From Candidatus Harrisonbacteria bacterium RIFCSPLOWO2_01_FULL_44_18 (GTDB lineage: Bacteria; Patescibacteriota; Minisyncoccia; UBA6257; WO2-44-18), in NCBI GenBank assembly GCA_001817915.1, contig MHJJ01000014.1, positions 3,695 to 67,694 on the forward strand: DNA of 64,000 bases, read 5' to 3'. The position numbers and the translations under genes are program-made. The notes beneath the pieces are model-generated. The model worked only from the letters and a program-made list of their open reading frames with translations. It searched no databases and was not told the DNA's origin. Position 1 is the stretch's first letter; every line of letters begins with the position of its first letter. Of the stretch, positions 2,457 to 22,159 are shown piece by piece.

Positions 2457-2846
2457 ATGATTGATTCTGAAACTAACAAAAAAATAAAGCCGGGCGCCGT
2501 GGTGCGTGTTTGGGAGAAAATACTCGCCGAGGGCGGGTCTTCGCCCGACGCCTCGTCAAAGGCAAGCGCGTCTCGGGAGCGCGCTTCTAGTGGAAAAGAA
2601 AGCGATAAATTCCGCTTTAGCAAGTTTGAAGGCCTTGTTTTGGCAAGAAAGCACGGCAATGAGTCCGGAGCCAGTTTTATTGTTCGCGCCACCGTTGCCG
2701 GCGTGGGCGTTGAAAAAGTTTATCCTATTCATTCGCCAATGATTGAAAAAGCGGAAATTATCAGTTCGCCTAAAAAAGTGCGCCGCGCCAAACTTTATTA
2801 CGTTCGCGGACTTTCTAAAAAAGAAACACGCCAGAAATTGGGATAA
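2457..2846 (+). CDS. rplS: 50S ribosomal protein L19
   Basis: KPGAVVRVWEKI ... GVGVEKVYPIHSPMIEKAEII ... RRAKLYYVRG match L19 conserved blocks. Has a Ser/Ala-rich internal insertion. Confidence 0.8.
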   Translation: MIDSETNKKIKPGAVVRVWEKILAEGGSSPDASSKASASRERASSGKESDKFRFSKFEGLVLARKHGNESGASFIVRATVAGVGVEKVYPIHSPMIEKAEIISSPKKVRRAKLYYVRGLSKKETRQKLG

Positions 2847-2876
2847 TGATTGAAAAACGGGATATTTTTAAATCCT

Positions 2877-2958
2877 GCCCAGGTGGAGGAATCGGCAGAC
2901 TCACTACTTTGAGGTGGTAGCGCCGTAAGGCATGCGGGTTCGAATCCCGCCCTGGGCA
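2877..2958 (+). tRNA. tRNA-Leu (anticodon GAG), type II
   Basis: Cloverleaf with acceptor GCCCAGG/CCTGGGC, anticodon loop TTGAGGT, long variable arm and T-arm GCGGGTTCGAATCCCGC. No encoded CCA. Close to E. coli tRNA-Leu(GAG). Confidence 0.85.
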
Positions 2959-2959
2959 C

Positions 2960-3427: not shown

Positions 3428-3543
3428 TATCTCGGTTCGACGGTAGAAGATCGTGGTTTCCGCTACGGTCGCAGTAACTTCCGTAGCGGACTCCTCGGCC
3501 TTCTGAAAAGGCCGACCACCACTCTCTCGGTTCGTCAGCGGAC

Positions 3544-21424: not shown

Positions 21425-21667
21425 TGGACCTAGCCAGAATCCCCTGCCTGCCGGCAGGCAGGGAACTGGCGTTTCCTCATTGTCCCGACAGCAAAGGTGG
21501 ACCCAAGGAGATTCGAACTCCTGACCTCCACATTGCAAATGTGGCGCTCTAGCCAACTGAGCTATGGGCCCACCTTTACTGTCGTGGATCCTCGACTTCA
21601 TTTTATTATATTTTTTAAAAAAGTGCGTCGGGACAAATGAGGTGTTCTGCCACTGAACTATAGGCCC
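21425..21667 (-). tRNA. interrupted tRNA-Ala(UGC)-like gene with 151-nt insert that contains the intact tRNA-Ala
   Basis: 5' exon 21634-21667: GGGCCTA TA GTTC AGTGGCA GAAC A CCTCA TTTG. 3' exon 21425-21482: CAA TGAGG AAAC GCCAG TTC[22-nt palindrome]GATT CTGGC TAGGTCC A. The acceptor stem pairs with G3:U70. The anticodon loop reads TTTGCAA once the insert is removed. The insert is bounded by 7-bp inverted repeats TCCCGAC/GTCGGGA. Confidence 0.45.
21498..21571 (-). tRNA. tRNA-Ala (anticodon UGC)
   Basis: GGGCCCATAGCTCAGTTGGCTAGAGCGCCACATTTGCAATGTGGAGGTCAGGAGTTCGAATCTCCTTGGGTCCA. G3:U70 Ala identity pair, anticodon loop TTTGCAA. No encoded CCA. Confidence 0.85.
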
Positions 21668-21890
21668 GCCCACTTGATTTATATTATTCGATTGTTTGGA
21701 TTTTCGCCAGACTTTGTTTGCCAATAAAATCTAACGGTTCAACGCGTTGAACCATTAGAGTTTTTTGATTCCTCAACATAATATTTATATTTCTAAACTA
21801 GTTATGCGCGGCATAAAGGAACCGGCGTCAAATACTTCGGGCTTCGGCGAGGCGAAGCTTGCTTACGCTAAAGCTTTGACGAAGCGAATG

Positions 21891-21977
21891 CGGAGACGGG
21901 AGGATTCGAACCTCCGATGCCCTTTCGGGCATACCGCATTTCGAGTGCGGCCCATTCAACCACTCTGGCACGTCTCC
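21891..21977 (-). tRNA. tRNA-Ser (anticodon CGA), type II
   Basis: GGAGACG...CCGCA CTCGAAA TGCGG..., long variable arm TATGCCCGAAAGGGCATC, T-arm GGAGGTTCGAATCCTCC, acceptor 3' strand CGTCTCC, discriminator G. Confidence 0.85.
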
Positions 21978-21979
21978 AA

Positions 21980-22159
21980 TGCCCTCGGGAAGAATCGAAC
22001 CTCCATCCGCGCGTTAGGAGTGCGCTGTTCCCCGCCTGCCATCGCTTGTGCCCCCAGAAAGAATCGAACTCTCATCTTTCCCTTAGGACGGGATTGCTCG
22101 GTCCATTGAGCTATGGGGGCTCAGGCCATGGCGGGCAGTATCCATTGAACTACGAGGGC
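21980..22159 (-). tRNA. interrupted tRNA-Arg(CCU)-like gene with 108-nt insert in the D-loop containing the intact tRNA-Arg
   Basis: 5' exon 22139-22159: GCCCTCG TA GTTC AATGGATA. 3' exon 21980-22030: GAAC A GCGCA CTCCTAA CGCGC GGAT GGAGG TTCGATT CTTCC CGAGGGC A. Acceptor and D stems are perfectly complementary across the insert. The insert is flanked by CCCGCC/GGCGGG. Confidence 0.45.
22049..22120 (-). tRNA. tRNA-Arg (anticodon CCU)
   Basis: GCCCCCA TA GCTC AATGGACC GAGC A ATCCC GTCCTAA GGGAA AGAT GAGAG TTCGATT CTTTC TGGGGGC A. Confidence 0.75.

What the first reader, a model, noticed from the sequence alone, without database searches (positions are those of the whole stretch)
21425..21667. 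Intact tRNA-Ala(UGC) nested inside a second, split tRNA-Ala(UGC)-like gene
On the minus strand, a 34-nt segment at 21634-21667 (GGGCCTA TA GTTC AGTGGCA GAAC A CCTCA TTTG) has exactly the acceptor 5' strand, D arm and anticodon 5' strand of a tRNA. A 58-nt segment at 21425-21482 supplies the matching parts:
- CAA completes the anticodon loop as TTTGCAA.
- TGAGG pairs with CCTCA.
- A T arm GCCAG/CTGGC follows.
- The acceptor 3' strand TAGGTCC pairs with GGGCCTA, including the Ala identity pair G3:U70, with discriminator A.

Between the two halves lies a 151-nt insert bounded by 7-bp inverted repeats TCCCGAC/GTCGGGA. The insert carries a fully canonical 74-nt tRNA-Ala(UGC) at 21498-21571. The outer T-loop also contains a 22-nt perfect palindrome (ccctgcctgccggcaggcaggg) placed between TTC and GATT.

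The inverted-repeat helix sits next to the anticodon stem, so the precursor could be processed like a BHB-type intron, which is not expected in Bacteria. Alternatively the outer gene is the footprint of a tRNA-targeting mobile element that carries its own replacement tRNA. I am not aware of either arrangement being described.
Basis: seen in the sequence. Interest (0 to 1): 0.9.

Follow-up and report, generated by a model that had tools for sequence, protein, structure and literature searches.

The report
Native tRNA-Ala gene split by replacement tRNA
In this groundwater Patescibacteria (Candidatus Harrisonbacteria) genome the lineage's own tRNA-Ala(UGC) gene has been split in its anticodon loop by a 151-base insert carrying a second complete tRNA-Ala(UGC), and also holds a widespread 20-base palindrome in its T loop; it looks like a scar of mobile-element-type tRNA gene replacement, not a spliced gene.

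Summary
With the 151-nt insert and a net 21-nt T-loop insert removed, the two outer segments give a 71-nt tRNA-Ala(UGC). It is 69/71 identical to uninterrupted tRNA-Ala(UGC) genes at the syntenic position in related Parcubacteria, so empty sites exist. The inner gene is a canonical tRNA-Ala(UGC) of a different sequence type (55/74 identical to the outer).

The BHB-intron reading fails. The junctions flank a 4x3 internal loop closed by the inverted repeat. No group I core is detectable, and the junction bases break the group I rule.

Two other genomes carry decayed versions of the same arrangement. One has lost 5 nt at the 3' junction; the other keeps only the 3' half. The T-loop palindrome CCTGCCTGCCGGCAGGCAGG recurs verbatim elsewhere. 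In eight Patescibacteria-type loci it sits in the D loop of a partial 5' tRNA copy that is followed by a small GIY-YIG nuclease gene and, in six of them, an intact or intron-bearing tRNA; one locus ends at the contig edge and one looks dead. It also occurs at 45 sites in viral contigs, against 0 for two control palindromes.

Best reading: a displaced native gene plus a rescue copy, an ORF-less product of homing-type tRNA-gene turnover. I found no description of this arrangement. Interest is moderate to high. The mechanism is inferred, not shown.

The parts
21634..21667 (-). Outer gene, 5' part (positions 1-35 of the native tRNA-Ala(UGC): acceptor 5' strand, D arm, anticodon-stem 5' strand, UUUG)
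   Evidence: Read. It is 34/34 identical to uninterrupted tRNA-Ala(UGC) genes in L013, L014, L015, L016, L018 and L019.
21483..21633 (-). 151-nt insert at tRNA position 35/36
   Evidence: No Rfam family other than the inner tRNA matches it, even at E<=10. No other copy exists in the window.
21627..21633 (-). Left inverted-repeat arm, TCCCGAC
   Evidence: It pairs with GTCGGGA at 21483-21489 in the minimum-free-energy fold. L011 has a 13-bp repeat with the same TCCC...GGGA termini at the same site.
21605..21610 (-). TATAAT, a promoter-like -10 element inside the AT-rich left part of the insert, 33 nt upstream of the inner tRNA
   Evidence: Seen directly in the sequence. The consensus scan does not call it because there is no -35 element. 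Its function is inferred only.
21572..21585 (-). Leader strand CGACAGTAAAGGTG, which pairs with the trailer and extends the inner acceptor stem
   Evidence: BLAST self-match and fold (-62.4 kcal/mol, z = -7.6).
21498..21571 (-). Inner, intact tRNA-Ala(UGC) with G3:U70. Presumed to be the working gene.
   Evidence: ARAGORN. Rfam RF00005 at 72.1 bits. It is 65/74 identical to the L025 tRNA-Ala and only 55/74 identical to its own outer gene.
21483..21497 (-). Trailer CCTTTGCTGTCGGGA, including the right inverted-repeat arm GTCGGGA (21483-21489)
   Evidence: It resembles the L025 trailer CCAAAGCTATCG, which precedes CAATGA... (manual comparison of the sequences read).
21425..21482 (-). Outer gene, 3' part (positions 36-73: CAA, anticodon-stem 3' strand, variable loop AAAC, T arm, acceptor 3' strand, discriminator A)
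   Evidence: After removal of 21 nt it differs from L013 at only two variable-loop bases.
21443..21462 (.). 20-bp palindrome 'P', CCTGCCTGCCGGCAGGCAGG, in the outer T loop (net insert 21 nt; perfect palindrome 21442-21463)
   Evidence: Unique in the window. Identical copies occur in L013, L025, L027, L028 and L032 (L026 carries a one-mismatch variant) and at 45 sites in 35 viral-contig stretches. Two control palindromes gave 0 hits.
21730..21759 (-). Terminator-like hairpin between tRNA-Ser(CGA) and outer exon 1. No consensus promoter lies between it and exon 1.
   Evidence: In L013 and L019, tRNA-Ser(CGA) abuts tRNA-Ala(UGC) with no spacer.
21890..22120 (-). Upstream tRNA-Arg(CCU) and tRNA-Ser(CGA), whose presence defines the synteny with the empty-site loci
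   Evidence: A promoter-like site lies at 22196-22168.

Best explanation
The outer sequence is this lineage's original tRNA-Ala(UGC) gene, still at its ancestral chromosomal position. It has been inactivated by two insertions.

1. At position 35/36 of the anticodon loop there is a 151-nt segment. It consists of a complete tRNA-Ala(UGC) of a different sequence type, flanked by an inverted repeat that extends its acceptor stem. An AT-rich piece with a TATAAT box was added later.
2. In the T loop there is one copy of a widely dispersed 20-bp palindrome (P).

The inner tRNA is the working gene and rescues the loss of the outer one. It is released from its transcript by ordinary RNase P and 3'-end processing. 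The outer halves are not spliced; they persist as leader and trailer or as silent DNA, and they decay with time.

What is shown:
- the orthology of the outer gene and the empty sites in relatives;
- the absence of BHB and group I features;
- the decay series in other genomes;
- the recurrence of P.

What is inferred: the arrangement was created, and possibly spread, by a homing-type process. In that process a nuclease-associated cassette invades a tRNA gene at the anticodon loop and brings or regenerates an intact tRNA, much as splicing makes an intron harmless. The window copy is an ORF-less derivative. The basis is that related Patescibacteria loci show a partial tRNA copy tagged by P, followed by a GIY-YIG nuclease gene and then an intact tRNA.
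For: Organism. The window matches Candidatus Harrisonbacteria: the HtrA protein is 100% identical to an NCBI protein of that name.

Orthology and empty sites.
- L013, L017 and L019 carry tRNA-Arg(CCU), tRNA-Ser(CGA) and then an uninterrupted tRNA-Ala(UGC). L013 and L019 also share the neighbours M50 peptidase, acetyltransferase and the 234-aa protein, and L019 the cation ATPase.
- The window exons minus 21 nt are 69/71 identical to the L013 gene, which scores 72.9 bits.

Not an intron.
- There is no Rfam intron hit even at E<=10.
- The 5' exon ends in G and the insert ends in A. Group I introns of Patescibacteria tRNAs have U and G at these positions (PMC13011429).
- The fold shows an internal loop plus a helix, not a BHB.

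Same arrangement elsewhere, decayed.
- L011 (a Wolfebacteria genome assembled from a metagenome) has exon 1, a 13-bp repeat with TCCC...GGGA termini, an inner tRNA-Ala(UGC) and a diverged P in the T loop. It lacks CAATG at the 3' junction.
- L025 has a type-B tRNA-Ala 65/74 identical to the window inner gene, a similar trailer and an outer 3' half with a decayed P. It has no exon 1.

Expression context. A terminator-like hairpin lies upstream of exon 1 with no consensus promoter after it. A TATAAT box lies inside the insert.

Nuclease link.
- In L025, a 5' fragment of tRNA-Thr with P in its D loop is followed by a 79-aa GIY-YIG ORF (Pfam E = 1e-11) and an intact tRNA-Thr.
- The same layout occurs for Asn and Phe in L027/28, L029-31 and L068, and with an intron-bearing tRNA-Asn in L026 and L064. 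L069 runs off the contig end inside the ORF, and L032 looks dead.
- In L027 the partial copy is 38/38 identical to the 5' half of the downstream tRNA.
- L013 and L019 are 100% identical for 1096 nt and then differ exactly at the tRNA-Arg locus. L019 has a LAGLIDADG-like ORF there; L013 has an inverted tRNA plus a P-bearing remnant.
Against: - The window insert has no nuclease or recombinase gene, and none was found beside the tRNAs of the window that were checked. Mobility of this particular insert is unproven.
- The outer gene is suspiciously pristine. Every stem pair and every universally conserved base is intact, and there are only two changes, both in the variable loop. This requires a recent event, gene conversion or selection.
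- The window and L011 outer genes differ by compensated changes: 4:69 is C:G versus U:A, and T-stem pair 51:63 is C:G versus G:C. These match two different functional alleles. This is awkward for a single ancient origin.
- The 3' half is retained in all three genomes, and L025 also has a P-tagged 3' fragment of tRNA-Ile. This could mean that the piece has a use.
- What P does, and how it arrives, is unknown. In the GIY-YIG loci P sits in the D loop of a 5' copy, whereas here it sits in the T loop of a 3' part.
- Only three tRNA-Ala examples were recovered. The metagenome scan demonstrably missed a contig known to contain the locus.
Confidence: 0.6

Rival explanations
1. The outer gene is alive. 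The precursor is processed so that both inserts are removed (or the halves are joined after RNase P and 3'-end processing release the inner tRNA). One locus would then yield two tRNA-Ala(UGC) species. This would be a bacterial counterpart of archaeal intron-containing or split tRNAs.
For: - In the window all outer stems, G3:U70 and the universally conserved bases are intact.
- The precursor folds into a nested cloverleaf, with the inverted repeat continuing the anticodon stem (z = -8.7).
- Differences between the window and L011 outer genes are compensated at 4:69 and 51:63.
- 35/36 is a site where self-splicing introns do sit in Patescibacteria tRNAs.
Against: - There is no BHB geometry.
- There is no group I or group II core, and the junction bases are wrong for group I.
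- To my knowledge (not searched here), no bacterial enzyme is known to remove a T-loop hairpin or to join such halves.
- L011 lacks 5 nt of the anticodon stem and loop, and L025 lacks exon 1 entirely.
- P is a generic dispersed palindrome found mostly outside tRNAs.
- A terminator-like hairpin with no promoter after it lies upstream of exon 1.
- ARAGORN rejects the outer gene while the hairpin is present.
Confidence: 0.05
2. The outer halves are no longer a tRNA gene but have been co-opted. Together with the inverted repeat they form a long leader-trailer duplex that insulates the inner pre-tRNA and helps its folding or processing. Alternatively, the P-bearing 3' half acts as a 3' stabiliser or terminator.
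For: - Leader-trailer helices directly extend the inner acceptor stem in the window (z = -7.6) and in L011 (z = -6.5), with different sequences.
- In L011 the inner tRNA has no promoter of its own, so it must be transcribed through exon 1.
- The P-tagged 3' half is kept in three genomes, and a similar piece follows tRNA-Ile in L025.
Against: - The helix is not supported in L025 (z = -0.97).
- Uninterrupted relatives do without any such scaffold.
- The P hairpin is not followed directly by a U tract.
- The decay seen in L011 and L025 argues against constraint on most of the outer sequence.
Confidence: 0.2
3. The locus is the remnant of integrase-mediated integration of one or two genomic islands or prophages into the tRNA gene, with crossovers in the anticodon loop and the T loop. 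Nearly all of each element was later deleted.
For: - From established knowledge, the anticodon loop and the T loop are the classical crossover sublocations for tyrosine integrases in tRNA genes.
- Intact tRNAs followed by 3' fragments, as seen for Ile and Ala in L025, resemble attL/attR pairs.
Against: - No integrase is present in the neighbourhood.
- Integration regenerates a chimeric tRNA from the host 5' part plus an element-borne 3' part. Here a complete foreign-type tRNA, including its own 5' half, is inserted, and the host 5' half is left over.
- The insert is bounded by inverted repeats, not direct repeats.
- The T-loop insert is a dispersed 20-bp palindrome, not an att scar.
Confidence: 0.07

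Closest known systems
Free-standing homing endonucleases and 'intronless homing' (phage T4 SegF; SegB in the T4 tRNA gene cluster)
   Same: A nuclease gene sits beside or inside conserved genes, including tRNA clusters, and spreads together with flanking markers. Related loci here place GIY-YIG or LAGLIDADG-like ORFs directly against tRNA genes, and close strains differ exactly at those sites. That SegB and SegF behave this way is from my own knowledge and from the titles and abstracts listed.
   Different: The window insert has no nuclease gene. The insert lies inside a tRNA gene and carries a whole replacement tRNA. No cleavage has been shown. A conserved palindrome tags the displaced piece.
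Group I introns at position 35/36 of Patescibacteria tRNAs (Nakagawa et al. 2026, PMC13011429)
   Same: The phylum is the same, and so is the otherwise unusual insertion position 35/36 in the anticodon loop. L026 and L064 appear to carry such introns (assigned by eye; no Rfam hit) next to the GIY-YIG cassette.
   Different: There is no ribozyme core. The insert is 151 nt, of which 74 are a tRNA. The 5' exon ends in G, not U, and the insert ends in A, not G. The cargo is a tRNA.
Archaeal BHB introns and Nanoarchaeum split tRNAs
   Same: A tRNA is interrupted near the anticodon, and complementary sequences bring the two halves together. An extra insert sits at a non-canonical position (the T loop), as in Thermoproteales multi-intron tRNAs (own knowledge; PMC4090602 was listed).
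   Different: The organism is a bacterium. There is no bulge-helix-bulge. Homologues in other genomes are truncated. No splicing endonuclease has been shown.
Integrative elements that target tRNA genes and restore the 3' end
   Same: An essential tRNA gene is used as a landing site and its function is preserved by sequence that the element brings. Leftover partial tRNA copies remain.
   Different: A whole tRNA rather than a 3' end is supplied. Inverted repeats, not direct repeats, bound the insert. There is no integrase, and the insert is only 151 nt.
'Fractured genes' (Dassa et al. 2009, PMC2677866)
   Same: An essential gene is broken by insertion of a homing-endonuclease gene, with a built-in way to restore function.
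   Different: There, function is restored by split inteins at the protein level. Here it is restored by a second gene copy at the DNA level.
Small mobile GC-rich palindromes (yeast mitochondrial GC clusters, Rickettsia palindromic elements, REP)
   Same: P is a short GC-rich palindrome found in many unrelated contexts. It is sometimes multi-copy or in tandem, and it can sit inside RNA genes.
   Different: P is only 20 bp and is conserved to the base across very different genomes (GC 0.38-0.68). No associated transposase was found. Membership of any named family was not tested beyond a literature string search that found nothing.

Membership tests
BHB (protein-spliced) tRNA intron | Two 3-nt bulges separated by a 4-bp helix, with the splice sites inside the bulges | tested here: not met
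   The junctions flank a 4x3 internal loop (UUUG/CAA) closed by the 7-bp repeat. The MFE fold even pairs most of that loop.
BHB (protein-spliced) tRNA intron | A splicing endonuclease (EndA) and a ligase encoded by the organism | not testable with these tools
   Only a 64-kb window is available, so the genome-wide gene content is unknown.
Group I intron in tRNA | A ribozyme core detectable with RF00028 | tested here: not met
   No hit at the gathering threshold or at E<=10. RF00028 misses some divergent Patescibacteria introns, but only 77 nt of non-tRNA sequence is available here.
Group I intron in tRNA | U as the last base of the 5' exon and G as the last base of the intron | tested here: not met
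   The exon ends ...TTTG and the insert ends ...GGGA. No boundary shift gives a 7-nt anticodon loop.
Group I intron in tRNA | Insertion in the anticodon loop (35/36 in Patescibacteria) | tested here: met
   The insert lies between G35 and C36 (PMC13011429).
Functional tRNA gene (outer) | Cloverleaf with conserved bases and Ala identity (G3:U70) | tested here: met
   This holds only after both inserts are removed in silico. ARAGORN then calls tRNA-Ala(tgc). The sequence is 69/71 identical to a 72.9-bit tRNA.
Functional tRNA gene (outer) | Contiguous, or interrupted only by an insert with a known removal mechanism | tested here: not met
   Homologues are truncated in L011 and L025.
Homing-endonuclease cassette (free-standing HEG / intronless homing) | A nuclease gene within or next to the insert | tested here: not met
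   There is none in the 151-nt insert or beside the window tRNAs that were checked. The feature is met only in related loci: GIY-YIG in L025-L032, L064, L068 and L069, and LAGLIDADG-like in L019 and L023.
Homing-endonuclease cassette (free-standing HEG / intronless homing) | Insert-free alleles at the same site in relatives | tested here: met
   L013, L017 and L019 are syntenic and uninterrupted. Six further contigs carry the uninterrupted gene.
Homing-endonuclease cassette (free-standing HEG / intronless homing) | The nuclease cuts the insert-free allele near the insertion site | not testable with these tools
   This needs biochemistry.
Integrase-type island in a tRNA gene | A tyrosine or serine recombinase, and a direct repeat of the tRNA 3' part at both ends | tested here: not met
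   No recombinase domain occurs among the neighbours. The insert is bounded by inverted repeats, and the inner gene is only 55/74 identical to the outer gene.
Dispersed palindrome P | The same 20-mer recurs in unrelated contexts far above chance | tested here: met
   35 viral-contig stretches with 45 exact sites, against 0 and 0 for two composition-matched palindromes. It also occurs in L013, L025, L027, L028, L032, L064 and L068 (L026 and L069 carry one-mismatch variants).

The most novel reading that the evidence does not exclude
The nested locus is a living two-in-one gene. The long precursor releases the inner tRNA-Ala, and both the 151-nt insert and the T-loop hairpin are removed at the RNA level by machinery not yet known in Bacteria. 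The P hairpins in the D, T and variable loops would then be a new kind of small bacterial tRNA intron.

A less radical novel reading is more probable, at about 0.35. P, a nuclease gene and a rescue tRNA together form a previously undescribed family of tRNA-gene-invading selfish cassettes in Patescibacteria, with P as an active, site-specific component.
Probability: 0.04. Interest if true: 0.95.

Novelty: new variant of a known kind. Interest (0 to 1): 0.6.

Why it matters
- It shows how an essential single-copy tRNA gene in a very small genome can be invaded and replaced without loss of function. The invading DNA brings a whole working copy, which plays the role that splicing plays for introns.
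- It exposes tRNA loci of Patescibacteria as hot spots of nuclease-associated turnover, marked by one conserved 20-bp palindrome that is also common in phage contigs. I found neither pattern described in the literature searched here.
- Practically, such loci confuse tRNA annotation. Half-genes, hairpin-bearing copies and hidden duplicates are easily missed. They could also serve as markers for recent DNA exchange among these uncultivated bacteria.
- If the outer gene turned out to be processed, it would overturn the view that Bacteria lack protein-dependent tRNA splicing.

Tried and rejected
- Upstream synteny of HtrA in four relatives (L021-L024) is not conserved, so that route gave no orthologous tRNA locus.
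- The metagenome scan with a pattern that excluded uninterrupted genes found nothing. The plain 22-mer found only uninterrupted genes, and it missed contig L006, which is known to hold the locus. Absence in that collection is therefore weak evidence.
- Viral-contig scans for the exon 1/insert junction and for the T arm plus palindrome found nothing.
- A profile made from the pseudo-ORF across the inner tRNA and exon 2 found no candidates in the word-indexed protein search. The exhaustive representative search with the 107-aa pseudo-ORF did work and yielded P0140 and hence L025.
- There is no second copy of the insert or of the Ser-Ala spacer in the window, and no hidden T-arm-bearing tRNA fragments.
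- Small ORFs next to other window tRNAs are not nucleases.
- I looked for a protein family shared by the neighbours of P in viral contigs and found none. A GIY-YIG gene is adjacent to P in only one viral contig, L064.
- Removing P in silico restores a detectable tRNA only in L057, which ARAGORN calls tRNA-Met even with P present. P is therefore not tRNA-specific.
- I considered a leader-trailer covariation argument between the window and L025 (AAAGG/CCTTT versus CTTTGG/CCAAAG). I dropped it because the L025 fold does not support the helix.
- I considered the L023 region upstream of its LAGLIDADG ORF as a tRNA-Leu remnant and rejected it, because only 3 bp can pair.
- A literature search for the palindrome string, and for GIY-YIG with Patescibacteria and tRNA, found nothing relevant.
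Full report
**1. The observation**

On the minus strand the sequence reads as follows.
- 21667-21634: GGGCCTA TA GTTC AGTGGCA GAAC A CCTCA TTTG.
- 21633-21483: a 151-nt insert.
- 21482-21425: CAA TGAGG AAAC GCCAG TTC[...]GATT CTGGC TAGGTCC A.

The insert starts with TCCCGAC and ends with GTCGGGA. It contains a canonical tRNA-Ala(UGC) at 21571-21498, called by ARAGORN and scoring 72.1 bits against Rfam tRNA.

The 22-nt perfect palindrome (21442-21463) shares its first C with the TTC of the T loop. The net T-loop insertion is therefore 21 nt, and removing it leaves the canonical TTCGATT.

ARAGORN accepts the joined exons as tRNA-Ala(tgc) only after the palindrome is removed. The whole 243-nt stretch folds into a nested cloverleaf far more stable than shuffled controls (z = -8.7).

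The locus is base-identical in 9 of 10 contigs from multiple samples and assemblies; the tenth has one mismatch in 381 nt. It is not an assembly artefact. The organism is a Candidatus Harrisonbacteria from Rifle groundwater.

**2. What the outer gene is**

A scan of species-representative genomes with a 25-mer from exon 1 found two loci. A metagenome scan with a 22-mer found eight more.

Nine of these ten loci are uninterrupted tRNA-Ala(UGC) genes.
- Exon 1 is 34/34 identical to six of them.
- The window's joined exons minus 21 nt (71 nt) are 69/71 identical to the gene in L013, which scores 72.9 bits. Both differences are in the variable loop.
- L013, L017 and L019 have the same local gene order as the window: tRNA-Arg(CCU), tRNA-Ser(CGA), then tRNA-Ala(UGC), with tRNA-Ala(GGC) and tRNA-Ser(UGA) nearby. 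L013 and L019 also share the M50 peptidase, an acetyltransferase and the 234-aa protein, and L019 the cation ATPase.

The outer sequence is therefore the lineage's own tRNA-Ala(UGC) gene at its ancestral position. The inner tRNA is of a different sequence type, only 55/74 identical to the outer gene.

**3. It is not an intron of a known kind**

*BHB intron.* The two junctions face each other across a 4x3 internal loop (UUUG/CAA) that is closed at once by the inverted repeat. A BHB would need two 3-nt bulges staggered by four base pairs.

*Group I intron.*
- Position 35/36 is exactly where group I introns sit in Patescibacteria tRNA-Asn and tRNA-Asp (PMC13011429).
- But no intron family matches, even at E<=10.
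- Only 77 nt of the insert is not tRNA.
- The 5' exon ends in G rather than U, and the insert ends in A rather than G.

*Expression context.*
- Upstream of exon 1 there is a terminator-like hairpin (21759-21730), and no consensus promoter follows it.
- The insert has a TATAAT box 33 nt upstream of the inner tRNA. Its function is inferred only.

**4. The same arrangement elsewhere, in decay**

*L011 (a Wolfebacteria genome assembled from a metagenome).*
- Exon 1 is 33/34 identical to the window's.
- The insert is at the same position, with a 13-bp inverted repeat that starts TCCC and ends GGGA.
- The inner tRNA-Ala(UGC) abuts the repeat.
- The 3' half carries a diverged copy of the same T-loop palindrome.
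- That 3' half lacks CAATG (positions 36-40), so no excision could yield a tRNA.

*L025.* I translated the 107-aa ORF that happens to run across the window locus and searched 1.8 billion representative proteins. One hit, P0140, is a called ORF whose N-terminus is the translation of an inner-tRNA 3' half plus exon 2. Its contig is L025.
- It holds a tRNA-Ala(UGC) 65/74 identical to the window's inner gene.
- It holds a trailer resembling the window's (compared by eye).
- It holds an outer-type 3' half that starts at CAA and carries a decayed palindrome.
- It has no exon 1.

The series runs from pristine (window), through junction-damaged (L011), to half-lost (L025). This is what a displaced, non-functional gene would show.

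**5. The T-loop palindrome is a dispersed element**

The 20-mer CCTGCCTGCCGGCAGGCAGG (P) occurs once in the window. It recurs verbatim in other contexts.
- In L025 it sits in the D loop of a 5' fragment of tRNA-Thr.
- In L013 it sits inside a scrambled remnant of tRNA-Arg, next to an intact tRNA-Arg.
- A scan of viral contigs found 35 stretches with 45 exact sites. Two composition-matched control palindromes gave none.
- The viral contexts are mostly intergenic and have very different base composition. They share no neighbouring protein family.
- P is sometimes multi-copy or in tandem.
- In L057 it sits in the variable loop of an otherwise intact tRNA-Met.

P is therefore not part of a tRNA structure. 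It is a separate small element whose means of spread is unknown. A literature string search found nothing.

**6. A recurrent nuclease-linked architecture**

In L025 the P-tagged 5' fragment of tRNA-Thr ends in the anticodon loop. It is followed by a 79-aa GIY-YIG ORF (Pfam E = 1e-11) and then an intact tRNA-Thr(UGU).

Homologues of that protein (66 proteins; those named by a source are mostly from Patescibacteria) were looked up in six further places. All show the same start of the layout: a 5' half of a tRNA with P, or a one-mismatch variant, exactly between D-loop GGTA and D-stem GAGC, a TATAAT-like box, and the GIY-YIG ORF. In most, a tRNA of the same kind follows.
- tRNA-Asn in L027/28 and L029-31. 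In L029-31, P has a second palindrome nested inside it.
- tRNA-Asn in L026. The downstream tRNA-Asn there carries what looks like an ORF-less group I intron at 35/36 (judged by eye; Rfam found none).
- tRNA-Phe in L068, with two tandem copies of P.
- An Asn-like 5' half in L069, where the locus ends inside the ORF, so no downstream tRNA can be seen.
- A locus that looks dead in L032.
- The viral contig L064 shows the same layout, with an apparently intron-bearing tRNA-Asn.

In L027 the partial copy is 38/38 identical to the 5' half of the downstream tRNA.

Two further observations point the same way.
- L013 and L019 are 100% identical for 1096 nt and then differ exactly at the tRNA-Arg locus. 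L019 has a LAGLIDADG-like ORF abutting the tRNA. L013 has an inverted tRNA plus the P-bearing remnant.
- L023 has a LAGLIDADG ORF between the L19 gene and tRNA-Leu, where the window has none.

tRNA loci in these bacteria are evidently sites of nuclease-associated turnover, and P marks the displaced piece.

**7. The most likely mechanism**

*Shown.*
- The native gene is split at 35/36 by DNA that carries a full replacement gene.
- Relatives have the empty site.
- No known intron features are present.
- Other copies decay.
- The T-loop insert is a dispersed palindrome.

*Inferred.* The arrangement arose by a homing-type or similar invasion in which the incoming DNA must bring a working tRNA, because it destroys an essential one. 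The window copy has no nuclease gene, so it is a passive or degenerate product.

The inner tRNA is presumably cut out of its transcript by RNase P and 3'-end processing. A 14-bp leader-trailer helix extends its acceptor stem. The original repeat was probably 17 bp (TCCCGACAGTAAAGGTG / CACCTTTGCTGTCGGGA), later split by the AT-rich piece, which is flanked by a CGAC direct repeat.

I put 0.6 on 'relic native gene plus rescue copy, not spliced'. Within that, I put about 0.35 on the specific nuclease-driven origin.

**8. What does not fit**

- The window's outer gene is almost too well preserved.
- The window and L011 outer genes differ by compensated changes that match two different functional alleles. 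This suggests either independent invasions that each also acquired P at the same T-loop position, or recombination with resident genes.
- The P-tagged 3' half persists in all three genomes, and a similar tRNA-Ile fragment follows the intact tRNA-Ile in L025.

These points keep two rivals alive: a co-opted scaffold (0.2) and, remotely, a living spliced gene (0.05). An integrase scar is unlikely (0.07).

**9. Novelty**

The closest known systems are:
- free-standing homing endonucleases and intronless homing, including SegB in the T4 tRNA cluster;
- group I introns at 35/36 in Patescibacteria;
- integrative elements that restore tRNA 3' ends;
- HEG-'fractured' genes rescued by split inteins.

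In the literature searches run here I found no description of the following:
- a complete tRNA gene nested in the anticodon loop of its orthologous predecessor;
- the layout of P-tagged half-tRNA, GIY-YIG gene and intact tRNA.

I rate the finding a new variant of a known kind, namely selfish-element disruption with built-in rescue. Interest is 0.6.

Noticed in passing
window 21443-21462; L033-L067 (viral contigs): The 20-bp palindrome CCTGCCTGCCGGCAGGCAGG occurs at 45 exact sites in 35 IMG/VR stretches of very different GC content (0.38-0.68). Two composition-matched control palindromes gave 0 hits. It is often flanked by short direct repeats of the local sequence (for example cacagaga[P]cacagaga). 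Its nature and means of spread are unknown.
   Followed up: partly
L025 620-1049; L026 1434-2080; L027 1443-1829; L029 1413-1809; L032 1-560; L064 494-900; L068 1100-1507; L069 1136-1455: A recurrent layout: a 5' half of a tRNA (Thr, Asn or Phe) with the palindrome exactly between D-loop GGTA and D-stem GAGC, then a TATAAT-like box and an approximately 80-aa GIY-YIG ORF. An intact or intron-bearing tRNA of the same kind follows in six of the eight loci; L069 ends at the contig edge and L032 looks dead. I found no description of this in the literature searched.
   Followed up: partly
L013 3496-3800 versus L019 3675-4455: Two contigs are 100% identical for 1096 nt and then differ exactly at the tRNA-Arg(CCU) locus. 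L019 has a LAGLIDADG-like ORF abutting the tRNA. L013 has the tRNA inverted, plus a scrambled 3' remnant carrying two different GC-rich palindromes.
   Followed up: partly
L023 1231-1974 versus window 2457-2959: A 219-aa LAGLIDADG_3-like ORF sits between the ribosomal protein L19 gene and tRNA-Leu(GAG) in a related Harrisonbacteria genome. The window has L19 directly followed by the tRNA.
   Followed up: no
L025 3905-3950: A 3' fragment of tRNA-Ile(GAU) lies 44 nt downstream of the intact tRNA-Ile in the 16S-linked tRNA pair. It carries a different GC-rich palindrome (TCCGCCGGCTGGCGGA) at the same T-loop position. A near-identical palindrome occurs in L013 at 3521-3536.
   Followed up: no
L026 1737-2080; L064 about 826 onward: tRNA-Asn(GUU) genes appear to carry group I-type introns at 35/36. 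Neither ARAGORN nor Rfam at gathering threshold detected them. This is consistent with the annotation problem described in PMC13011429.
   Followed up: no
L057 2240-2335; L034 8570-8660: A phage-contig tRNA-Met(CAU) carries the palindrome in its variable loop and is otherwise intact. A related contig has the same insertion plus a deletion in the T arm.
   Followed up: no
L066 3916-4142: A tandem array of at least ten 21-nt units (CCATGCCTACCGGCAGGCAGG, a variant of the palindrome) lies at the end of a viral contig.
   Followed up: no
L013 4109-4270; L019 4774-4935: tRNA-Ser(CGA), with an encoded CCA, abuts tRNA-Ala(UGC) with no spacer. The window has 222 nt between them, including a terminator-like hairpin at 21730-21759.
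   Followed up: no
Metagenome-contig collection: The scan did not return contig Ga0209541_10097634 (L006), which contains the query 22-mer exactly. Negative results from that collection are therefore not reliable evidence of absence.
   Followed up: no
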